The translations under genes were made by a program, and so were the position numbers. Below the pieces are notes generated by a model that made no database searches, was not told where the DNA came from, and worked only from the letters and a program-made list of their open reading frames with translations. A stretch of 46,497 bases of DNA, taken from contig CALFWJ010000160.1 of the NCBI GenBank assembly GCA_937928525.1, forward strand, positions 1 to 46,497, in the 5' to 3' direction. This DNA comes from an uncultured Alphaproteobacteria bacterium. Its GTDB lineage: Bacteria > Pseudomonadota > Alphaproteobacteria > UBA2136 > UBA6156. Below, one piece after another: positions 102 through 42,369 of this stretch (positions are counted from its first letter, which is position 1; each line of letters opens with the position of its first letter).

Positions 102-144
102 CTTTGGGCTTCACAAGGCCGCCCCGGTGTGGCAAGGTGAACGC

Positions 145-1491
145 ATGAGCAAAAAAAACACACCTGAGAAATTCCCCACTATTAACCCGAATCGCCTTAA
201 GCCATTTGAGCGGAACAGCCGCAACCATGGTGAGGCCAACCTTCGAAAAATTGAGGCCAGCATATTAGAGTTTGGCTTTACGCGGCCGGTGGTTATTGAT
301 GAGGCCGATATGATACTGGCAGGCCACGGCGCAGTGCTTGCCGCTAACAGGCTCAATATGGAGGCCATACCGTACCGCCGCATTGAGGGTTTGAGCGAGG
401 CACAAAAGCGTGCGTATGTTATTGCGGATAATAAAATTGCTGAAACAAGCCAATGGGATATGCCGGTGCTGGCAGCTGAGTTTGCAGAGCTTGAGCAAGA
501 GGGCTTTGATTTAGCCGTTACGGGTTTTGACCTCAAAGAGATTGAGGGCATTATGGATGATGGCCAGGGCGGCTACGGCGCGGCCGGCGATGCAACGGGC
601 AGCATGGCCAAAAAATACCTAGCCCCGCCATTTAGCATTTTGGACACCAAGCAAAAATACTGGCAAGACCGTAAAAAGGCATGGAATGAGCGCATAAATG
701 ATAATGGCGAATCGCGCGAGGGTGCTTTGAGCAAAGGCGAAAACCTTGTTGCCGGCATTAACCAGGGCGTAAGCATTTTGGATGCCGTGCTTGCAGAGGT
801 GCTTTGCCATTGGTTTGCGCAGCCTGGCCACAACGCTTTTGACCCGTTCGCTGGTGACTCTGTGTTTGGTTATGTGGCCTGCAGCTCAGGCCTCACGTTT
901 ACTGGTATTGAGCTGCGTAAAGAGCAGGCCGATTTAAACCAGGCGCGCTTAGACGCTGCAGAGCTGAGCGGTACGTATATTTGCGACACAAGCGAAAATA
1001 TGAGCAAGCACATTAAGCCGGCCAGCATGGATTTTGTTTTTAGCTGCCCACCTTATGCCGATTTGGAAGTTTACAGTGACGACCCAAAGGATTTAAGCAC
1101 CCTGGCGCACGATGAGTTTTTCCCAATATACGAGCGAATCCTGGGCAACACGTATAAGGTGCTCAAAAGCAACCGCTTTGCCGTTATTGTTACCAGTGAA
1201 GTGCGGGGTAAAAATGGCGAATATCTAGGCTTAGTGCCAGCCACCATTAACGCCATGGTGCAGGCCGGCTACAAATATTATAACGAGATCGTCCTGGTAA
1301 ACAGCATTGGCAGCCTGCCCCTGCGCGCAGGCAAGTTCATGCAGCAAAGCCGCAAGGTAGGCAGGCAGCACCAAAACGTGCTGGTGTTTTACAAGGGCGA
1401 CCTCAAGAAAATTAAAGCAAATTTTGGCGAAATAGAGCTGCCGGATATGGAAGCGTTAGCGGAGGATGAAGATGGACAGGCAGTGGAATAA
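145..1491 (+). CDS. ParB-like N-terminal domain fused to an N6-adenine/N4-cytosine DNA methyltransferase
   Basis: Lies in ORF 127..1491; ATG 145 follows AAGGTG. The N-terminal part has a ParB-nuclease-domain pattern (RNSRNH, ILAGHGAVLAA, IPY). The C-terminal half has AdoMet-binding DPFAGDS and catalytic FSCPPY motifs. Confidence 0.85.
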   Translation: MSKKNTPEKFPTINPNRLKPFERNSRNHGEANLRKIEASILEFGFTRPVVIDEADMILAGHGAVLAANRLNMEAIPYRRIEGLSEAQKRAYVIADNKIAETSQWDMPVLAAEFAELEQEGFDLAVTGFDLKEIEGIMDDGQGGYGAAGDATGSMAKKYLAPPFSILDTKQKYWQDRKKAWNERINDNGESREGALSKGENLVAGINQGVSILDAVLAEVLCHWFAQPGHNAFDPFAGDSVFGYVACSSGLTFTGIELRKEQADLNQARLDAAELSGTYICDTSENMSKHIKPASMDFVFSCPPYADLEVYSDDPKDLSTLAHDEFFPIYERILGNTYKVLKSNRFAVIVTSEVRGKNGEYLGLVPATINAMVQAGYKYYNEIVLVNSIGSLPLRAGKFMQQSRKVGRQHQNVLVFYKGDLKKIKANFGEIELPDMEALAEDEDGQAVE

Positions 1492-1666
1492 GCCGGCGCA
1501 AGGCGTTGGCGATGGCAAAATGTTAAAAACTGTTTGTAATTTTGATGCAGAAACACATGCTGAAATAAAGGCGTTGGCTGTTAGGGAAAAAACCAGCTTT
1601 GCAGCACAGGTGCGCATACTGGTTGAGTGGGGTTTAATGGAAGTGGCGGCGCAGGAAAATGATTAA
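1472..1666 (+). CDS. Small ribbon-helix-helix-like DNA-binding protein
   Basis: Lies in ORF 1466..1666; ATG 1472 is 6 nt after GGAGG. CNFDAETHAEIKALAVREKTSFAAQVRILVEWGL fits a strand-helix-helix (CopG/Arc-like) layout. The start could be 1466, 1472 or 1520. Confidence 0.5.
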   Translation: MDRQWNKPAQGVGDGKMLKTVCNFDAETHAEIKALAVREKTSFAAQVRILVEWGLMEVAAQEND

Positions 1667-1670
1667 AGCA

Positions 1671-1765
1671 GGCAACAAAATGCACAAACCGGGCAATAAT
1701 ATGCGAATCCGGGCAATTTTATGCACAAAAGGGGCAATTTAATGCAAACCAGGGGGCAAATAGCC
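1671..1765. repeat. Four full and one partial tandem ~21-bp direct repeats (iteron-like), consensus GGCAAT-WWW-ATGCACAAAcc
   Basis: GGCAA anchors lie at 1671, 1692, 1712, 1733 and 1755, spaced 21, 20, 21 and 22 bp. ATGC is invariant at repeat positions 10-13. The array spans the RHH stop to the AdoMetDC start. Confidence 0.7.
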
Positions 1766-2077
1766 ACGGCCGATATATGGCTTAAAGGCAAATACGACCA
1801 GCTGCGCATATTGGTGGCCATCGAGCGCATGCTGGAAAAGTACACGGTTGTTAACCAGGTGGCGCACCAATTTGCGCCGCACGGGCTTACAAAGGTTTGG
1901 GTGCTAGCCGAGTCGCACTGCGCGCTGCACACATACCCGGAGCACAATTTTATTGCCGTTGACCTGTACACCTGCAGCGGCAGTTACGACCCCCGGCAGT
2001 GCCTTATTGATATGGCCACAGGCCTAGGCTATGTAGACGCGCAATTTAGGCGCAACACACGCGGCCGTAAATTATAA
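1721..2077 (+). CDS. speH-like: SpeH/SpeD-class pyruvoyl S-adenosylmethionine decarboxylase proenzyme homologue
   Basis: HQFAPHGLTKVWVLAESHCALHTYPEHNFIAVDLYTCS matches the hallmark of small prokaryotic AdoMetDC. It has the Glu-Ser self-cleavage site (E64-S65, nt 1910-1915), the downstream His, and the TC(G/S) Cys. An alternative in-frame start is at 1742. Confidence 0.8.
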   Translation: MHKRGNLMQTRGQIATADIWLKGKYDQLRILVAIERMLEKYTVVNQVAHQFAPHGLTKVWVLAESHCALHTYPEHNFIAVDLYTCSGSYDPRQCLIDMATGLGYVDAQFRRNTRGRKL

Positions 2078-2113: not shown

Positions 2114-2368
2114 ATGGAAACCAAAAGCGCACAGATACGCATTTTACTTGAGGCTGGCAAAGACCGTGAGGCACTACGCATTGCGGCTAAGTTCTTTGAC
2201 CGCAGCGATGAAACAGGGCTATACAAAAAAGCGCATGAGGGCTTGCTTAACCCAGGATTTTACAAACAGCTGGGTGTTGATGTAGACTTAACCTACAAGC
2301 AAGCAGTACAAAACTTACGTGAGCGTTTCCTTAATGACCAAAAAGACCACCAAAAAGCAGCCGGCTAA
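2114..2368 (+). CDS. Hypothetical protein (84 aa)
   Basis: ORF in the track with a plausible helical sequence. It is co-oriented and tightly packed; no recognisable motif. Confidence 0.55.
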   Translation: METKSAQIRILLEAGKDREALRIAAKFFDRSDETGLYKKAHEGLLNPGFYKQLGVDVDLTYKQAVQNLRERFLNDQKDHQKAAG

Positions 2369-2753
2369 GAAGGTTACAAAGCCAAGCCACCGCGCCACCA
2401 AAGAGCGGCGCGAAACGGTTGGTGCTATGAGTGCGTACGGAATCCCGCAAAAGGAAATTGCAAACTGCCTTGAGATTGACGTTAAAACGCTGCGCAAGCA
2501 TTACCGTGAGGAGCTGGACACAGCCCAGGCAAAAGCCAATGCAGCCGTTGCCGGCAAGCTGTACAAAAAGGCCATGGGTGGCTGCACCAGGAGCATGATT
2601 TTTTGGCTTAAGACGCGCGGCCGTTGGAGCACCAAGCTTGAGGTAGAAAACACCGGGCTTATAGGCAATGTGCCGCTGCCGCCGCCGGATAAAGAGTTTA
2701 AAGACCCTATTGAGGCTGCAAAATATTACAAGGAAATGGTCAAAGAACTTTAG
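2334..2753 (+). CDS. HTH protein resembling terminase small subunits / phage HTH regulators
   Basis: Lies in ORF 2319..2753 (GTG 2319 or ATG 2334). YGIPQKEIANCLEIDVKTLRKHY is an HTH. The C-terminal IFWLKTRGRW motif is common in small terminase-like proteins. It lies 8.5 kb from TerL, so its role is uncertain. Confidence 0.55.
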   Translation: MTKKTTKKQPAKKVTKPSHRATKERRETVGAMSAYGIPQKEIANCLEIDVKTLRKHYREELDTAQAKANAAVAGKLYKKAMGGCTRSMIFWLKTRGRWSTKLEVENTGLIGNVPLPPPDKEFKDPIEAAKYYKEMVKEL

Positions 2754-4019: not shown

Positions 4020-4865
4020 ATGGAACACTTCCGCACCATATACACAGCATTTTGCTTAGAGCACTACCCGGACAAAACCATTACTGATTTTGAGCGTGAC
4101 GTTGCCACGCTTGCGCCGTTGGTTGCCAACGCAGCCGCCAACCGCACTACGCAGGACACGCTTATAGACACACAGCTGCTTGGCCAGGCCGAGGGCAGCA
4201 CCCAGCATAAAACCCAGAGCGAAAAGGCAGAGCAGGAAGCTGAGCCGACCGAATCACCAAAGGGGCAGGAGGCAGAGGAGAAACCAACGCCCACCCCGGC
4301 AGGCGGCTTTGACCCGCTAGAAGGGATTAAGAGTAAACCAATGGCCACACGCACTGGTAAAAGCTACGAAAAAACGAGCAAAAAAAGCGGCTGGCGCAAA
4401 GACAACGCCGCCGGCCTGGCCGCCTACCGGGCGCGTAACGCAACACCAAAAGAGAACACGGCCGAAACCGAGGCAGAGCTGGCAAGGGCAAAAAACACGC
4501 CAGCTATTGAGCTGCCGCCGGCCAATGAGGACGACAGGCGCAAGGGCAGGGATTTAACCGCCTTGCAGGCCGCAACCCTTACGCATATTTGCCAGGAAAA
4601 AGACCGCCGCCCCACAGAGGAGGTGCGCCACAGCCATATTGCTGAGATTATGGGCTGCGTAACCCAAAACGTAAGCGGTAGCGTAAATGGCCTGGTTAAA
4701 AAAGGCTTTGTTGAGGTGCAACCGAGCACCGAGGATAAGCGAGCGCGCAGCATTGTACCGCTGCGCCGGGCATGCGGTAAACGCTACGAGCCGCCGCAAA
4801 AAATTGATGGCATAACCCGCTGCGAACCCGCGCGCGCCATAGGTTATGGCATAGACTGCCATTAA
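4020..4865 (+). CDS. Protein with low-complexity N-terminal half and C-terminal MarR-type winged HTH
   Basis: LTALQAATLTHICQE...IAEIMGCVTQNVSGSVNGLVKKGFVEVQPSTEDKRARSIVPL matches the MarR/wHTH recognition helix plus wing. Confidence 0.7.
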   Translation: MEHFRTIYTAFCLEHYPDKTITDFERDVATLAPLVANAAANRTTQDTLIDTQLLGQAEGSTQHKTQSEKAEQEAEPTESPKGQEAEEKPTPTPAGGFDPLEGIKSKPMATRTGKSYEKTSKKSGWRKDNAAGLAAYRARNATPKENTAETEAELARAKNTPAIELPPANEDDRRKGRDLTALQAATLTHICQEKDRRPTEEVRHSHIAEIMGCVTQNVSGSVNGLVKKGFVEVQPSTEDKRARSIVPLRRACGKRYEPPQKIDGITRCEPARAIGYGIDCH

Positions 4866-5251: not shown

Positions 5252-5617
5252 ATGGCTAAATTACTCACCAAAGCCCTGCGCGCTAAAATGGAAGCAAACT
5301 GGCAGCTAAACCAGGGTGATATGGCCGCAGGCATTGAGCCTGGCAGCCATGACCTTGTGCCGGTGGCCAAGTTTTTTACCCCGGATGGTAACTGCACCTG
5401 GCTTATTACAGAGTTTGACCCGCAAACGGGCAATATGTTTGGCCTGTGCGATTTAGGCCATGGCAGCCCAGAGCTGGGCTACATAAATTATTTTGAGCTG
5501 CAAAAGCTGCGTGGCAAAATGGGCTTGCCCGTTGAGCGCGAGCGTTACAGCACAATAACTACGCCGTTAAGCAAGCTGGCAGAGCACGCCATGCAGCACG
5601 GCCGTATCATTTTATAG
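5252..5617 (+). CDS. DUF2958-family protein
   Basis: KFFTPDGNCTWLITEFDPQTGNMFGLCDLGHGSPELGYINYFELQKLRGKMGLPVERE fits the DUF2958 signature as I recall it. Confidence 0.7.
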   Translation: MAKLLTKALRAKMEANWQLNQGDMAAGIEPGSHDLVPVAKFFTPDGNCTWLITEFDPQTGNMFGLCDLGHGSPELGYINYFELQKLRGKMGLPVERERYSTITTPLSKLAEHAMQHGRIIL

Positions 5618-7866: not shown

Positions 7867-8367
7867 ATGTCATTGGATTTACAAATACGTGATGCACTTG
7901 TGGAGGTGGCCACAAGCATTAACGGTATAAACACGCTCATAGGCAACCTGCCGAGCCTCACCACCACAGAAAAAGCCAGCCTTGTTGGCGCAATTAACGA
8001 AGTTAAAGCCGCAGTCGATGCCGTAGCCGGCGCAGCTATAAACGATAGCACAACGGCCACCGATTCGGTTTGGTCGAGTACAAAAGTGGCCAGCGAGATT
8101 ACCACGGCTGTAAACGATGTAATAAATGGCGCACCAGGCGCGCTGGACACGCTCAATGAGTTGGCCGTGGCTCTGCAGGGTAACGACTCGGATATTGCCG
8201 GCGTGCTAACAGCCCTGGCAAGCCGTGTGCGCACCGATACTGCTACGCAAGGCCTTAACGCTACACAGCAAGGCAATGCACGCACCAACATTGGCGCAGC
8301 CAGCGCAGCGGATGTAGGCGACACGGCGCGCGATTTCTCAGCTGACTTTACGGGCGCGCTCGCATAA
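7867..8367 (+). CDS. Tail fibre shaft protein
   Basis: Classic fibre repeat motifs are present: INGAPGALDTLNELAVALQGND, QGLNATQQGNARTNIGAAS and DSVWSSTKV. AAGGAG RBS. Confidence 0.75.
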   Translation: MSLDLQIRDALVEVATSINGINTLIGNLPSLTTTEKASLVGAINEVKAAVDAVAGAAINDSTTATDSVWSSTKVASEITTAVNDVINGAPGALDTLNELAVALQGNDSDIAGVLTALASRVRTDTATQGLNATQQGNARTNIGAASAADVGDTARDFSADFTGALA

Positions 8368-11043: not shown

Positions 11044-11246
11044 CACCAGCTCAATTTAAAGATGTGCGCCTAAGCAACAAAATGACGCAGCAAGCGTTTG
11101 GTGTGGCTTTAGGCATGCCAAGCAAGAGTGCCGGCCGCAGCGTGCGTGCTTATGAATCCGGCGAAAGAAAAATACCAGGAGTGCTGGCCACGGCTGTGCG
11201 TCTTGTGGAGCAATACGGGTTTGTAAATGGCGAATCCTTGGGATAA
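11040..11246 (+). CDS. XRE-family HTH protein (68 aa)
   Basis: SNKMTQQAFGVALGMPSKSAGRSVRAYESGERKIP is a typical HTH_3/Cro-C1 signature. ATGA overlap upstream; overlaps the TerL start by 20 nt. Confidence 0.75.
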   Translation: MTPAQFKDVRLSNKMTQQAFGVALGMPSKSAGRSVRAYESGERKIPGVLATAVRLVEQYGFVNGESLG

Positions 11247-12867
11247 TGGCACACCAGATTACATGGCCGAATTTACGCGCCGGCGCAAGCTGTACAAACG
11301 CATTGCCGGCGACCCGGAGGCCTGGGAAAGACTAAAGCCATTTTACAAGGCCAACCCGGCGCAATGGATTAACGATTTTTGCGTTACATACGACCCCCGC
11401 AACAAACCGCCCAAACCTAAAACACTGCCGTTTTTGCTGTTCCCCCGCCAGGAGGAGTTTATTGCATGCCTGCAAGAGTGTGTGGAGCTTGGCGAGTCGC
11501 TCATTGTGGAGAAAAGCCGCGACATGGGCGCAAGTTGGCTGTGCTGCGCATACAGCGTGCACCAATGGTATTTTAACTCAGGCGCAAGCATTGGCTGGGG
11601 TAGCCGTAAGCAAGAGCTGGTTGATAAGCTGGGCGACCCCGATTCCATATTTGAAAAAATGCGCATAATTATTGACCACTTGCCCAGCTTCCATATACCG
11701 GAAACCTTTGGCCTGGGCAGCCATGCTAACTTTATGAAGCTGGTAAACCCGGCCAACGGCTCAACGGTTACTGGTGAGGCTGGCGACAATATCGGCCGTG
11801 GTGGCCGCAGCATGATGTACTTTAAGGATGAATCCGCACACTACGAGCGCGCAGAGAAAATTGAGGCAGCCCTGGGCGACAACACAGACGTACAGGTTGA
11901 TATTTCAAGTGTAAATGGCACTAACAACGTGTTTTACCGGCGCGCGCAGGCGGCCGGCGTTTGGTATCCCAAAGGCAAGTTGCTGCCGCCGGGCACGACT
12001 CGCAAGTTTATTATGGATTGGCGCGACCACCCGCTAAAAGACCAGGCCTGGTATGACCGCCGCAAAGCCAAAGCAGAAAATGAGGGCTTGCTGGCAGCTT
12101 TTGCACAGGAGGTTGACAGGGATTATAGCAGCGCGGTTGAGGGCATAATAATACAGCCAGGCTGGGTTAAGGCTGCTATTGATGCGCACATAAAGCTAGG
12201 CATAGAAGACGATGGCGAAAAAATAGGCGCGCTGGACTTGGCCGATGAGGGCAGGGATAAGCACGCATTTGCCGGCCGGCATGGCGTGGTGCTTAAAAAG
12301 TGCTACGATTGGCCGCGCGGCGATGGAGGGCGAGCAGCCAGGCTTGCCGTTGATGAGTGCGTGCAGCTGAGCGCAACCGAATTGTACTATGATTCCATTG
12401 GTGTTGGCGCGGCCGCAAAAAGCGAAACAAACCGCATGCAAGAGCACGGCGAGCTGCCCAGGCATTTAACTGTGCGGGGCTGGAACGCCGGCGCAAGCCC
12501 TCAAGAGCCTGAAAAAAACATCATTAAGGGGGATGCAGAGTCGCCTAAAAACAAAGATTATTTTGAAAATTTGAGCATACAGGCCTACCATTTGCTTGCT
12601 CAAAGGTTTTACAAAACGTACCTGGCCGTAACAAAAGGCCGTGAATACCCGCACGATGAGCTAATAAGTATTAGCAGTGATATTGAGCAATTAGATGAAA
12701 TTGTGATAGAGTTAAGCCAGGCAACCCAAACCTTTAGCAAAAAAGGCAAAAAAATGCTGCAAAAAACGCCGGAAGGGGGCAAAAGCCCTAACTTAGCGGA
12801 CTGTATTAAAATGTGCTACTGCCCTGTGCGTAAGGGCGTGGACTATAGCAAATTGGTGACAATGTAA
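11227..12867 (+). CDS. terL: Terminase large subunit
   Basis: 546 aa immediately upstream of the portal. It has an ATPase-type VEKSRDMGASW segment and a C-terminal nuclease-sized half. Gene order is TerL-portal-MuF. Confidence 0.85.
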   Translation: MANPWDNGTPDYMAEFTRRRKLYKRIAGDPEAWERLKPFYKANPAQWINDFCVTYDPRNKPPKPKTLPFLLFPRQEEFIACLQECVELGESLIVEKSRDMGASWLCCAYSVHQWYFNSGASIGWGSRKQELVDKLGDPDSIFEKMRIIIDHLPSFHIPETFGLGSHANFMKLVNPANGSTVTGEAGDNIGRGGRSMMYFKDESAHYERAEKIEAALGDNTDVQVDISSVNGTNNVFYRRAQAAGVWYPKGKLLPPGTTRKFIMDWRDHPLKDQAWYDRRKAKAENEGLLAAFAQEVDRDYSSAVEGIIIQPGWVKAAIDAHIKLGIEDDGEKIGALDLADEGRDKHAFAGRHGVVLKKCYDWPRGDGGRAARLAVDECVQLSATELYYDSIGVGAAAKSETNRMQEHGELPRHLTVRGWNAGASPQEPEKNIIKGDAESPKNKDYFENLSIQAYHLLAQRFYKTYLAVTKGREYPHDELISISSDIEQLDEIVIELSQATQTFSKKGKKMLQKTPEGGKSPNLADCIKMCYCPVRKGVDYSKLVTM

Positions 12868-41509: not shown

Positions 41510-41819
41510 GGCCGCGCCTCCTCTGCATGTTTTCGTTGTGCGTAACAACCTCTAAATTATCGCGCCGGCAATCAAGTGTTTGGTGGTTGCGGTGGTCAAC
41601 GTGCATATCCTCTGGCGCGTCCATAATGTACCGGTGCAGGTAAACCTTTTTGCCCTTAATGGTGGCGCGCGCATAGGGCTGCCCTGGCTTGCGTTTGCTG
41701 CCCCGGCTCTTGTGCGCATGCCATTTGTAGCGGTTAACTCTGCGGTAGTCCTGCGCGCTTATAATGGCCACATAGCCCTGCGTAAGCTCAAGCACTCGCC
41801 ATTTTTGCTTATGAGCCAT
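41499..41819 (-). CDS. HNH endonuclease
   Basis: YLHRYIM...HVDHRNHQTLDCRRDNLEVVTHNENM is an HNH motif. ATG 41819 follows GGAGG. It overlaps both neighbours by 11 nt. Confidence 0.8.
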   Translation of the reverse strand: MAHKQKWRVLELTQGYVAIISAQDYRRVNRYKWHAHKSRGSKRKPGQPYARATIKGKKVYLHRYIMDAPEDMHVDHRNHQTLDCRRDNLEVVTHNENMQRRRGRGN

Positions 41820-42369
41820 CGCCTTGCCTCCAAACAAATTTTGTGCCGCCCTGGTGGCCGCGCTTAAAGCAATACCAAGCGCAGTTATCCTTGCCGGTGT
41901 TTTTGCTGCCTGGAATCCACTTAACACGGCCAACGCTAACCACTTTTACGCAGTATTTTTTAAACTCATTGGCCTGCACAGTATGCAAATAATCAGCATC
42001 AAGCAGAACCCATATTTCGCCAGCAAAAATGCTAAGTAAATGGCGCATAATGTGGTTAAAAATCTCGCCTTTGTCCGGGCGTTTTTCCCATGGCGGGTTG
42101 GTTATAATGTGCGTGCAGCCCTGCAGCATTTTAGCCGTAAGCTTAAGCGCATCTATTTTGGTGACTCGCGGGTCTGTAGGTTTTATGTCGCTGGCATGCG
42201 CCACCTCAAGCCCGTTGTATATAAGGTGGTAGCACAGCAAAAAATTGCCGGCGCACACCTCTGCATATTTGCCTAAAGGGTCAAGGTGCTCAATAACCGG
42301 CACAGCGGCCGCATATGGCGTTTCGTAAAAATCGCGCGGGTTGCGCTCAAATTCGCTGCGTTTACCCAT
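41809..42369 (-). CDS. Orphan DNA N6-adenine-type methyltransferase (NPPW)
   Basis: DFYETP near the N-terminus, AEVCAGN (AdoMet site) and IITNPPW catalytic motif. No adjacent restriction gene. Confidence 0.75.
   Translation of the reverse strand: MGKRSEFERNPRDFYETPYAAAVPVIEHLDPLGKYAEVCAGNFLLCYHLIYNGLEVAHASDIKPTDPRVTKIDALKLTAKMLQGCTHIITNPPWEKRPDKGEIFNHIMRHLLSIFAGEIWVLLDADYLHTVQANEFKKYCVKVVSVGRVKWIPGSKNTGKDNCAWYCFKRGHQGGTKFVWRQGDGS

What the first reader, a model, noticed from the sequence alone, without database searches (positions are those of the whole stretch)
1721..2077. Minimal SpeH-class pyruvoyl S-adenosylmethionine decarboxylase homologue in a non-cyanophage-looking genome
Seen: the 118-aa ORF contains HQFAPHGLTKVWVLAESHCALHTYPEHNFIAVDLYTCS. 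It has the Glu-Ser autoprocessing dipeptide (E64-S65, nt 1910-1915), a His five residues on, and the Cys of the TC(G/S) motif. These are the residues the small prokaryotic AdoMetDC proenzymes use to form the pyruvoyl group and catalyse decarboxylation. Established: speD/speH homologues are known as auxiliary metabolic genes in marine cyanomyoviruses. Members of this fold have also been reported as neofunctionalised to arginine/ornithine decarboxylases. Inference: the substrate is therefore open (SAM, Arg or Orn). Its placement next to a DNA methylase, rather than in a metabolic cluster, is unusual.
Basis: partly seen in the sequence, partly recalled or inferred. Interest (0 to 1): 0.6.

Follow-up and report, generated by a model that had tools for sequence, protein, structure and literature searches.

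The report
Phage SAM decarboxylase paired with DNA methylase
The small gene is a genuine, intact S-adenosylmethionine decarboxylase. Its place beside a DNA methylase is the rule for its clade: 73 of 74 relatives of that methylase with one altered cofactor-loop residue have this gene directly behind them, so it probably supplies decarboxylated SAM for phage DNA modification, a use I found in no paper I could search.

Summary
**Observation:** confirmed. Pfam AdoMet_dc scores 68.8 bits. The AlphaFold model (pLDDT 95.6) matches Thermotoga maritima AdoMetDC at TM 0.82. D11, F44, E57-S58, H63, P66-E67 and C78 are all present.

**Substrate:** SAM is favoured. The Pro-Glu that marks bona fide AdoMetDC is kept. 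The nearest tested relative, Croceibacter phage P2559S gp67, is a proven AdoMetDC in the same gene arrangement.

**Context:** the window is a 46.5-kb contractile-tailed phage genome. The placement next to the methylase is not odd. Among 172 distinct ParB-methyltransferases from viral and prokaryote contigs:
- 73 of 74 with Asp at loop position 244 have an AdoMetDC gene directly downstream.
- 0 of 98 with Gly at that position do.

Asp244 sits where a solved relative binds the cofactor's carboxylate. Most genomes searched lack spermidine synthase.

**Best reading (about 50%):** the enzyme supplies decarboxylated SAM to its methylase neighbour.

**Caveats:**
- The correlation is largely one clade, with only two independent contrasts.
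- No chemistry was tested.
- The host assignment is uncertain.

Earlier notes of this scan reported the same pair on other DNA. I re-tested their claim here.

The parts
127..1491 (+). ParB-like N-terminal domain fused to an amino-(N6/N4)-type DNA methyltransferase domain. It is the conserved upstream partner of the AdoMetDC gene.
   Evidence: phrog_498 'DNA methyltransferase' E=1e-125 and ParB-like PHROGs. Pfam N6_N4_Mtase E=6e-10. A profile of the family hits solved beta-class N6A/N4C DNA methyltransferases and ParB/Noc/Spo0J. It is 41% identical (E=3e-98) to P2559S gp66.
847..870 (+). Motif I cofactor loop F241-A-G-D244-S-V-F247-G248 of the methyltransferase. The Asp244 codon is GAC at 856-858.
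   Evidence: Codons read. Position 244 is Asp in 74 and Gly in 98 distinct relatives. Asp goes with an AdoMetDC gene downstream in 73 of 74, and Gly in 0 of 98. The register F241...E262 is the same as in M.BceJIV, where Ser244 and Thr246 hydrogen-bond the cofactor's carboxyl end (PMC11380664).
1045..1056 (+). Catalytic motif IV, C-P-P-Y (S-C-P-P-Y), of the methyltransferase.
   Evidence: Invariant C307 P308 P309 Y310 in alignment A2. It is the same in enzymes with and without the partner.
1466..1666 (+). Small ribbon-helix-helix (ParG-like) gene inserted between the methyltransferase and the AdoMetDC gene. It overlaps the methyltransferase's 3' end by 26 nt.
   Evidence: Pfam ParG 21.8 bits (cut-off 21.4) and FitA-like RHH. 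In the closest relatives this slot holds other small genes, BubE or unknown. In most other pairs the two genes overlap directly.
1671..1765 (.). Array of about 4.5 direct repeats of 21 nt (GGGCAAT-N3-ATGCAVAM) that spans the AdoMetDC start. It supplies the extra in-frame ATG at 1721.
   Evidence: Tandem Repeats Finder, period 21. Four adjacent pattern matches. Absent at the same place in L005 and L006.
1742..2077 (+). AdoMetDC (SpeD/SpeH class 1b) proenzyme, 111 aa. The alternative upstream ATG at 1721 gives the 118-aa ORF of the finding. The predicted beta chain is residues 1-57 and the alpha chain is residues 58-111, with an N-terminal pyruvoyl group.
1910..1915 (+). Glu57-Ser58 (GAG TCG), the predicted self-cleavage site. 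Ser58 becomes the pyruvoyl group.
   Evidence: E57, S58, H59, H63, P66, E67 and C78 are invariant in 52 of 52 methyltransferase-linked homologues. They align with S63, H68 and C83 of T. maritima AdoMetDC.
2114..2368 (+). Conserved 84-aa gene of unknown function that follows the AdoMetDC gene in the close relatives.
   Evidence: phrog_18237 E=6.5e-9. Present at the same position in L005, L006 and L007.
2319..2753 (+). Terminase-small-subunit-like gene, the usual downstream neighbour of the pair.
   Evidence: phrog_309 'terminase small subunit' E=1.3e-17. Homologues follow the pair in L005-L009, L013, L014, L016 and L035. Terminase genes follow it in ZRG1, L012, L032 and L052, and the large terminase stands at the other end of the linear P2559S record.

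Best explanation
The gene encodes a bona fide class 1b S-adenosylmethionine decarboxylase.

Proposed mechanism:
- The 111-aa proenzyme cleaves itself between Glu57 and Ser58, and Ser58 becomes an N-terminal pyruvoyl group.
- With His63 and Cys78, and with Glu57 and Glu67 holding the adenosine, the enzyme converts SAM to decarboxylated SAM (dcSAM).
- In this phage lineage the enzyme is not mainly a polyamine gene. It is the fixed partner of the ParB-domain DNA methyltransferase encoded just upstream.
- That methyltransferase has an Asp in place of Gly at the loop position that normally contacts the cofactor's carboxylate, and a Phe in place of an Arg three residues on.
- I infer that this enzyme uses dcSAM rather than SAM to modify phage DNA around the time of packaging.

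Because the changed residue lies in the pocket that holds the cofactor's tail in the ordinary methyl-transfer pose, methyl transfer from dcSAM is somewhat more likely than aminopropyl transfer. Methyl transfer from dcSAM would let the phage drain the SAM that host restriction and BREX systems need while still marking its own DNA.

Shown here: family, fold and catalytic residues; gene linkage; the loop correlation.
Inferred: self-cleavage, SAM as the substrate, dcSAM use by the neighbour, and which group is transferred.
For: Identity:
- PF02675 68.8 bits. TIGR03330 71.8 bits.
- AlphaFold2 pLDDT 95.6, and best fold matches T. maritima and Aquifex AdoMetDC at TM 0.76-0.82.
- All processing, catalytic and SAM-binding residues are kept (PMC10407285; PMC1282579).
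- P2559S gp67 is 51% identical over the core and sits in the same pair; its neighbour gp66 is 41% identical to the window's methyltransferase. gp67 is an experimentally confirmed AdoMetDC.

Linkage:
- The order methyltransferase, then AdoMetDC, then terminase-region genes is seen in L005-L007 (45-73% identity) and in Pseudomonas phage ZRG1 (37%).
- 25 of 80 viral loci found with the AdoMetDC have the methyltransferase directly upstream. They are the most similar ones.

Loop:
- Asp244 goes with the partner in 73 of 74 distinct methyltransferases, and Gly244 in 0 of 98. The contigs come from at least 8 phyla.
- Column 244 is the only alignment column that follows the partner in both off-clade cases, L128 and L052.
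- Asp244 is in the register of M.BceJIV Ser244, which binds the cofactor's carboxyl end.

Against a polyamine role:
- No SpeE in the window or in the MAG.
- SpeE found in 0 of 16 genomes of the MAG's family.
- A full SpeE hit in only 2 of 10 genomes that carry the pair.
Against: - No biochemistry on this protein or on any partnered methyltransferase.
- TIGR03330 scores 71.8 bits, just under its equivalog cut-off of 75.65.
- The loop-partner correlation is mostly one clade. On a tree built without the loop columns, Asp244 changes only twice, which gives 2 independent contrasts and no significance.
- One Asp244 enzyme (L198) has no AdoMetDC within 2.4 kb.
- The mapping of Asp244 onto a carboxylate contact rests on motif register, not on a superposed structure.
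- In this window the pair is separated by an RHH gene and a repeat array, so it is not translationally coupled as in most relatives.
- Host assignment is weak. The contig is the MAG's compositional outlier: GC 50.3% against 46.3 +/- 2.3%, and tetranucleotide r 0.83, the lowest of 20 contigs. The MAG is 55% complete.
- gp67 makes dcSAM that E. coli SpeE can use, so a polyamine role is possible wherever a host has SpeE.
- The phage has a second methyltransferase-like gene (41812-42369) that presumably needs SAM.
Confidence: 0.5

Rival explanations
1. Ordinary auxiliary metabolic gene. The enzyme makes dcSAM so that a host spermidine synthase raises spermidine for phage translation or for charge neutralisation of DNA during packaging. 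The linkage to the methyltransferase is only shared late-operon position.
For: This is the published role of phage AdoMetDC genes, and gp67 of P2559S restores spermidine in E. coli with SpeE. The gene sits just upstream of packaging genes. Two of ten genomes that carry the pair have a clear SpeE.
Against: SpeE was not found in the window, in the MAG, in 16 of 16 genomes of its family, or at full strength in 8 of 10 genomes that carry the pair. This reading does not explain why 73 of 74 Asp244 methyltransferases keep the gene while 0 of 98 Gly244 ones have it, although both kinds sit before terminase genes.
Confidence: 0.2
2. SAM-pool sabotage only. The decarboxylase lowers SAM (as T3 SAM lyase does) to disable SAM-dependent restriction or BREX. 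The methyltransferase's loop change merely lets it keep working at low SAM or resist dcSAM inhibition. dcSAM is not its cofactor.
For: SAM is a required cofactor of BREX methyltransferase PglX (PMC11842806 abstract). SAM depletion as a phage counter-defence is established knowledge (T3 SAM lyase; my own knowledge, not tested here). The gene linkage is compatible with this reading.
Against: The direction of the changes suggests adaptation to a cofactor without a carboxylate, not tighter SAM binding: an anionic Asp gained at the carboxylate-contact position and a cationic Arg lost. The phage carries a second methyltransferase-like gene.
Confidence: 0.15
3. Neofunctionalised pyruvoyl arginine or ornithine decarboxylase (SpeDA/SpeDC type) that makes agmatine or putrescine.
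For: Such phage enzymes exist and are hard to tell from AdoMetDC by sequence, above all the arginine decarboxylases. TIGR03330 is missed by 4 bits, and the first 31 profile positions are not aligned by HMMER.
Against: The Pro that separates AdoMetDC from the arginine decarboxylases, and the ribose-binding Glu, are kept here and in 52 of 52 linked homologues. The tested member of the linked group is an AdoMetDC. At E<=1e-3 the tblastn hits among phages are 133 cyanophages and a few others, with no pelagiphage, the host group of the tested arginine decarboxylase.
Confidence: 0.06
4. The order is reversed. The methyltransferase homologue puts the 3-amino-3-carboxypropyl group of SAM on a DNA base, and the pyruvoyl enzyme then decarboxylates that adduct on DNA.
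For: Phage decarboxylases that trim amino-acid adducts on DNA are cited in earlier scan notes. I did not check this. Linkage alone cannot tell the order.
Against: gp67 acts on free SAM. The adenosine-binding Glu residues are invariant in the linked clade. An Asp at the carboxylate contact of the transferase argues against a carboxylated cofactor tail.
Confidence: 0.04

Closest known systems
Croceibacter phage P2559S gp67 (YP_006560687), a phage AdoMetDC shown to restore spermidine in E. coli delta-speD (Li et al., PNAS 2023, PMC9992855)
   Same: Class 1b AdoMetDC of about 106-111 aa and 51% identical over the catalytic core. It has the same gene context: directly behind a ParB-methyltransferase with the F-A-G-D-T-V-F-G loop and next to packaging genes.
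   Different: In P2559S the two genes overlap by 38 nt. In the window an RHH gene and a 21-nt repeat array lie between them. The N-terminal third is not alignable by BLASTP. The phages differ: P2559S is a siphovirus of a flavobacterium, and the window has a contractile tail module.
Thermotoga maritima AdoMetDC (SpeH/TM0655; PDB 1tlu, 1tmi, 1vr7, 3iwb-d)
   Same: Same fold (TM 0.82, rmsd 2.3-2.8 A). The window's Ser58, His63 and Cys78 correspond to S63, H68 and C83, and the ES and HT(W/Y)PE motifs are shared.
   Different: 28% identity. It is a cellular enzyme that works with spermidine synthase. The window protein has Ile in place of the His of the N-terminal G-x-H motif and Cys after ESH.
Cyanophage SpeD auxiliary metabolic genes (for example S-PM2; tested in PMC9992855)
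   Same: Same family and about 45-50% identity over the core.
   Different: They are not linked to a ParB-methyltransferase. None of the 55 unlinked viral loci in my sample, on large myovirus or giant-virus contigs, has one within 5 kb.
Phage SpeD-derived arginine and ornithine decarboxylases (HTVC201P and Lake Baikal phage; PMC9992855, PMC10407285)
   Same: Same fold and the same Ser/His/Cys processing triad.
   Different: They lack AdoMetDC activity. The arginine type loses the conserved Pro, and the ornithine type has four diagnostic residues (Gln, Thr, Phe, Tyr). The window protein keeps the Pro.
Aminopropyltransferases (spermidine synthase, PF01564), the known dcSAM-using class I methyltransferase-fold enzymes
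   Same: As proposed here, a Rossmann-type SAM-fold enzyme that takes dcSAM, and whose genes are often adjacent or fused to AdoMetDC (fusion P0215). From my own knowledge, an acidic residue in their glycine-rich loop is held to exclude SAM's carboxylate. I did not check this here.
   Different: The window's enzyme is by sequence a DNA amino-methyltransferase with S-C-P-P-Y and a ParB domain, not a PF01564 member. Its acceptor would be DNA, and the group transferred is unknown.
Partner-less ParB-methyltransferases of phages and prophages (phrog_498, loop F-A-G-G-S-V-R-G)
   Same: Same architecture, the same motif IV, the same position before terminase genes, and 35-45% identity.
   Different: Gly244 and Arg247 in place of Asp244 and Phe247, and no AdoMetDC gene behind them (0 of 98).

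Membership tests
Class 1b pyruvoyl AdoMetDC (SpeD/SpeH; PF02675, TIGR03330) | Significant match to the family profile | tested here: met
   PF02675 68.8 bits against a cut-off of 25. The stricter equivalog model TIGR03330 gives 71.8 bits against a cut-off of 75.65, narrowly missed; relatives P0005 and P0008 pass it.
Class 1b pyruvoyl AdoMetDC (SpeD/SpeH; PF02675, TIGR03330) | AdoMetDC alpha/beta-sandwich fold | tested here: met
   AlphaFold2 pLDDT 95.6, pTM 0.88. Top Foldseek hits are 1vr7, 2iii, 1tlu and 1tmi, at TM 0.76-0.82 and E down to 2e-9.
Class 1b pyruvoyl AdoMetDC (SpeD/SpeH; PF02675, TIGR03330) | Glu-Ser self-cleavage site, His five residues on, and the catalytic Cys (T. maritima S63, H68, C83) | tested here: met
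   E57-S58, H63 and C78 are present. They are invariant in 73-row alignment A3 and in 52 of 52 methyltransferase-linked homologues.
Class 1b pyruvoyl AdoMetDC (SpeD/SpeH; PF02675, TIGR03330) | Residues specific for SAM: the Pro of HT(W/Y)PE, conserved in all bona fide enzymes, and the two Glu that contact base and ribose | tested here: met
   H63-T-Y-P66-E67 and E57 are present. The criteria come from PMC10407285 and PMC1282579.
Class 1b pyruvoyl AdoMetDC (SpeD/SpeH; PF02675, TIGR03330) | Autocatalytic processing and decarboxylation of SAM | not testable with these tools
   Needs expression with an S58A control and an assay. The linked homologue gp67 of P2559S is active in vivo.
SpeD-derived arginine decarboxylase (SpeDA) | Loss of conservation of the Pro that is invariant in AdoMetDC | tested here: not met
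   Pro66 is present here and in 52 of 52 linked homologues.
SpeD-derived ornithine decarboxylase (SpeDC) | Four diagnostic residues, Gln, Thr, Phe and Tyr, in the central region | tested here: inconclusive
   Their positions are given only in a figure that is not held. The central region reads as the AdoMetDC consensus (LAESHCALHTYPEH...DLYTC). At E<=1e-3 the phage hits include no pelagiphage, the group of the tested arginine decarboxylase.
Polyamine auxiliary module (AdoMetDC working with spermidine synthase) | An aminopropyltransferase (PF01564) in the phage or its host to use dcSAM | tested here: not met
   None in the window or in the 55%-complete MAG. Found in 0 of 16 family relatives. 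A full-length hit in 2 of 10 genomes that carry the pair. Caveat: the host assignment by binning is uncertain.
Methyltransferase-linked AdoMetDC pair (ParB-methyltransferase with Asp244 loop plus AdoMetDC; seen in P2559S and ZRG1) | AdoMetDC gene directly downstream, on the same strand, of a ParB-domain amino-methyltransferase | tested here: met
   Methyltransferase 127-1491, AdoMetDC 1742-2077, with a 250-nt gap that holds an RHH gene. In 66 of the 73 other pairs the two genes overlap or lie within 5 nt.
Methyltransferase-linked AdoMetDC pair (ParB-methyltransferase with Asp244 loop plus AdoMetDC; seen in P2559S and ZRG1) | Motif I loop F-x-G-D-(S/T)-x-F-G in place of F-x-G-G-S-V-R-G | tested here: met
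   The window reads F241-A-G-D-S-V-F-G248. Asp244 with partner 73 of 74; Gly244 with partner 0 of 98.
Methyltransferase-linked AdoMetDC pair (ParB-methyltransferase with Asp244 loop plus AdoMetDC; seen in P2559S and ZRG1) | The methyltransferase uses dcSAM | not testable with these tools
   Inference only, from the loop change and its register with M.BceJIV Ser244/Thr246.

The most novel reading that the evidence does not exclude
The Asp244 ParB-'methyltransferase' does not methylate. It takes dcSAM from its partner and transfers the 3-aminopropyl group to the exocyclic amine of adenine or cytosine in phage DNA at packaging. The product would be a cationic hypermodified base, N6-(3-aminopropyl)adenine or N4-(3-aminopropyl)cytosine, that I found in no paper I could search. 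This would be a DNA counterpart of spermidine synthase and would be spread over phages of at least eight phyla.
Probability: 0.2. Interest if true: 0.9.

Novelty: new variant of a known kind. Interest (0 to 1): 0.66.

Why it matters
Phage AdoMetDC genes are currently read as polyamine auxiliary genes. Here the gene belongs to a widespread two-gene cassette whose second member is a DNA methyltransferase with a changed cofactor pocket, and most genomes searched that carry the cassette lack spermidine synthase.

If the methyltransferase uses dcSAM, this would be the first DNA-modifying enzyme known to do so. It would either methylate DNA independently of the SAM pool, which gives a route to starve SAM-dependent restriction and BREX while still self-marking, or it would make a new aminopropyl base.

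Two cultured phages carry the cassette: Croceibacter phage P2559S and Stutzerimonas phage ZRG1. The question can therefore be tested directly by nucleoside mass spectrometry and by a two-protein in vitro assay.

In practice, 'adenosylmethionine decarboxylase' next to 'ParB/methylase' in phage annotations should not be filed under polyamine metabolism by default.

Tried and rejected
- Megablast of the first 8 kb against phage records found nothing. A single-protein pattern scan of viral contigs also found nothing. An alignment was needed.
- My first table of genome contigs used a loose regular expression. It picked wrong loops and gave a misleading table. I replaced it with hmmalign columns.
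- One apparent exception (L236) was an ORF-calling miss. tblastn finds the AdoMetDC at 58% identity.
- I looked for longer AdoMetDC fusions that might name the partner function. They are fusions to spermidine synthase, an ion channel or a multi-pass membrane domain, never to a DNA methyltransferase.
- I tried to read the T. maritima complex paper (Bale 2010) and Iyer et al. 2013 (NAR 41:7635). Neither is held. What the earlier notes say Iyer 2013 states about this gene pair is therefore unverified by me.
- I could not fetch tested arginine or ornithine decarboxylase sequences, so there is no tree with labelled activities. The supplements hold no sequences.
- Paper searches for the pair or for dcSAM-dependent DNA modification found nothing relevant. 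The search for P2559S or ZRG1 returned only yeast ZRG genes in the ten papers listed.
- Terminal repeats that would prove a complete genome were not found. Completeness is inferred from gene order matching L005 and L006.
- An independent-contrast test gave only 2 pairs. I do not claim statistical significance for co-evolution.
- I did not use the second structure job on the methyltransferase, because the tool returns no coordinates with which to measure cofactor contacts.
Full report
**1. The observation**

The ORF at 1721-2077 (+) is real and encodes the quoted peptide.
- It matches Pfam AdoMet_dc (PF02675) at E=5.9e-19, 68.8 bits against a cut-off of 25.
- It matches PHROGs 3125 and 27309, 'S-adenosylmethionine decarboxylase'.
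- It matches the solved T. maritima and Aquifex enzymes at E about 1e-11 to 5e-12.
- NCBIfam's equivalog model TIGR03330 gives 71.8 bits, just under its cut-off of 75.65. Two relatives pass it.

Gene callers and every close homologue begin at the second in-frame ATG (nt 1742; M-[QED]-T-[RG]-G...), which is preceded by AAAGGGG. I therefore take the protein as 111 aa. The His is H63 and the Cys is C78.

An AlphaFold2 model built on a 73-row alignment has mean pLDDT 95.6. Its best Foldseek matches are T. maritima AdoMetDC (1vr7, 1tlu, 1tmi; TM 0.80-0.82) and Aquifex 2iii.

**2. The genome**

The window is the whole of contig C160 of a 925-kb, 55%-complete MAG.
- The plus strand carries a large terminase (11227-12867), portal, Mu-F-like head protein, protease, major capsid protein, tail sheath, tape measure, baseplate and fibre genes.
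- The minus strand from 33.7 kb carries a RecT-like protein, two helicases, a second methyltransferase-like gene and a primase-helicase.
- The gene order at the two contig ends matches the continuous order in relatives L005 and L006: primase (-), 230-aa gene (-), methyltransferase (+). The contig is therefore a complete or nearly complete contractile-tailed phage genome.
- It has no close relative among deposited phages.
- It is the MAG's largest contig and its compositional outlier: GC 50.3% against 46.3 +/- 2.3%, and the lowest tetranucleotide correlation of 20 contigs. The host assignment is tentative.

**3. Which substrate**

Li et al. showed that class 1b homologues in phages may be true AdoMetDCs or arginine or ornithine decarboxylases (PMC9992855).
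[quoted passage not shown] The ornithine decarboxylases carry four diagnostic residues (PMC10407285).
- Two Glu residues bind the base and the ribose of SAM: one just before the processed Ser, the other four residues after the His (PMC1282579).
- The window protein reads L-A-E57-S58-H-C-A-L-H63-T-Y-P66-E67, so it has all of these.
- In my sample, E57, S58, H59, H63, P66, E67 and C78 are invariant in all 52 methyltransferase-linked homologues.
- The nearest characterised protein is gp67 of Croceibacter phage P2559S, 51% identical over the core. It restored spermidine in E. coli delta-speD.

I could not place the protein on a tree with labelled arginine or ornithine enzymes, because their sequences could not be fetched. 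I leave about 6% for those substrates.

**4. The neighbourhood is a conserved cassette**

- The closest relatives (45-73% identical) show the same order: ParB-methyltransferase, a small variable gene, AdoMetDC, an 84-aa gene, a terminase-small-subunit-like gene.
- The 37%-identical homologue in Pseudomonas (Stutzerimonas) phage ZRG1 overlaps the 3' end of a 'ParB N-terminal domain' gene and is followed by terminase genes.
- In P2559S, gp66 ('containing methyltransferase domain') is 41% identical to the window's methyltransferase (E=3e-98) and overlaps gp67.
- Of 80 viral loci retrieved with an AdoMetDC alignment, the 25 most similar have the methyltransferase ending at or overlapping the AdoMetDC start. 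The other 55, on giant-virus and large cyanophage-size contigs, have none.
- Starting instead from the methyltransferase, 14 of 19 close relatives have the AdoMetDC gene right behind it.

**5. A cofactor-loop residue tracks the partner**

Earlier notes of this scan, made on other DNA, claimed that the methyltransferase's cofactor loop changes with the partner. I tested this claim myself.
- In alignment A2 the partnered enzymes read F-A-G-D-(S/T)-V-F-G in motif I, and the partner-less ones read F-A-G-G-S-(V/T)-R-G.
- I then retrieved 80 more viral and 80 prokaryote-genome loci with the methyltransferase alignment. I aligned every enzyme to one profile and kept distinct proteins with at least 450 nt of downstream sequence.
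- The result: Asp244 with an AdoMetDC gene downstream in 73 of 74, and Gly244 in 0 of 98 (L236 corrected by tblastn). Residue 247 (Phe or Arg) follows almost as well.
- The Asp244 loci come from contigs labelled Bacteroidota, Pseudomonadota, Bacillota, Verrucomicrobiota, Campylobacterota, Lentisphaerota, Poribacteria and one Methanolobus bin.
- Motif IV (S/T-C-P-P-Y) is the same in both groups.

**6. How independent is the correlation**

Not very.
- On a tree of 160 methyltransferase domains built without the loop columns, Asp244 changes only twice and the partner three times.
- There are 2 independent contrasts, both concordant, which cannot reach significance.
- L128 lies inside the Asp clade, has Gly244 and goes straight from the methyltransferase to the terminase genes.
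- L052 lies inside the Gly clade, has Asp244 (and Lys247) and has the partner.
- Of about 28 columns that separate the two clades, only column 244 follows the partner in both exceptions.
- One Asp244 enzyme (L198, with an atypical loop C-G-D-T-M-F-A) has no partner within 2.4 kb.

The fair statement is this. One old clade of methyltransferases has kept the decarboxylase gene through divergence down to about 35-40% identity and across many host phyla. The few switches seen go the predicted way.

**7. What Asp244 probably does**

The methyltransferase domain is a permuted relative of beta-class N6A/N4C DNA methyltransferases such as TTHA0409, a cytosine-N4 methyltransferase, CcrM, MboIIA and PvuII. 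Its motif I aligns without gaps to their D-P-F-x-G-(S/T)-G-T-T.

In the M.BceJIV-DNA-sinefungin structure:
- the adenine stacks on Phe241 of F-x-G-x-G;
- the ribose binds Glu262;
- 'the carboxyl end' of the cofactor hydrogen-bonds Ser244 and Thr246 (PMC11380664).

The window enzyme has F241, G243 and E262 in the same register, so Asp244 and Val246 fall on the carboxylate contacts. An Asp there, together with the loss of Arg247, is what one would expect if the cofactor had lost its carboxylate. This is an inference from motif register, not from a structure.

**8. The polyamine reading**

dcSAM is useful for polyamines only with an aminopropyltransferase.
- PF01564 is not found in the window or in the MAG.
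- It is not found in 16 of 16 genomes of the MAG's family, which also have no AdoMetDC of their own.
- Of 10 genomes that carry the pair, only 2 have a full-strength hit, 3 have weak partial hits and 5 have none. The five include Dysgonomonas, Wocania, Paludibacter and Gemella.
- The PNAS paper that tested gp67 does not mention methyltransferases at all.
- I found no paper on dcSAM-dependent DNA modification in the held library. Iyer et al. 2013, which earlier notes say mentions the pair, is not held.

**9. Verdict**

| Claim | My estimate |
|---|---|
| The enzyme is an ordinary, intact AdoMetDC | about 85-90% |
| It supplies dcSAM to the adjoining Asp244 ParB-methyltransferase for phage DNA modification near packaging | about 50% |
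| If so, the group transferred is methyl / aminopropyl | about 60 / 40 |

The altered residue lies in the pocket used in the methyl-transfer pose, which is why I favour methyl transfer.

Rivals:
- polyamine supply, about 20%;
- SAM depletion alone, about 15%;
- arginine or ornithine decarboxylase, about 6%;
- decarboxylation of a DNA adduct, about 4%.

The window's own peculiarity is that an RHH gene and a 21-nt repeat array have been inserted between the two partners. They are co-oriented but no longer translationally coupled.

Noticed in passing
window 1671-1765: About 4.5 tandem copies of a 21-nt unit (GGGCAAT-N3-ATGCAVAM) lie between the RHH gene and the AdoMetDC start. Each copy carries an ATG. 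The array is absent at the same place in relatives L005 and L006. It may be an operator for the adjacent ribbon-helix-helix protein.
   Followed up: partly
window 331-333 (methyltransferase residue 69): The ParB domain of the window's methyltransferase reads G-H-G-A where nine of the ten relatives in alignment A2 that have this domain hold an Arg (G-H-G-R or similar). The conserved Arg of the ParB box is therefore lost here.
   Followed up: no
window 41812-42369 (-): A second methyltransferase-like ORF (phrog_799, E=3e-31) has no Pfam hit. If it is active it presumably needs SAM, which bears on any SAM-depletion model.
   Followed up: no
proteins P0141, P0144, P0155, P0157, P0160, P0260, P0125 and P0139 (not in the window): AdoMetDC domains occur fused to a polytopic membrane domain of about 250 aa without a Pfam hit, and in one case to the C-terminus of an ion-transport channel. 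One classic SpeD-SpeE fusion (P0215) also turned up.
   Followed up: partly
window 1-46497 (contig C160 of the MAG): The phage contig is by far the largest contig of the bin (46.5 kb against 17.7 kb for the next). It is also the bin's compositional outlier, so the bin may not be its host.
   Followed up: partly
window 7867-8367 (+): A fibre-like gene (phrog_4757, with tail-fibre PHROGs) sits among small early-region genes, about 20 kb from the baseplate and fibre block.
   Followed up: no
L231 (contig JAVEPM010000103.1): An Asp244 methyltransferase, with an AdoMetDC gene 810 nt downstream, lies on a contig binned with a Methanolobus (archaeal) MAG. This is either mis-binning or an archaeal virus with the cassette.
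   Followed up: no
window 4020-4865 and 5252-5617 (+): A 281-aa protein has a C-terminal MarR-type winged helix and a long acidic, low-complexity N-terminal half. A DUF2958 protein (E=1e-30) lies in the early region.
   Followed up: no
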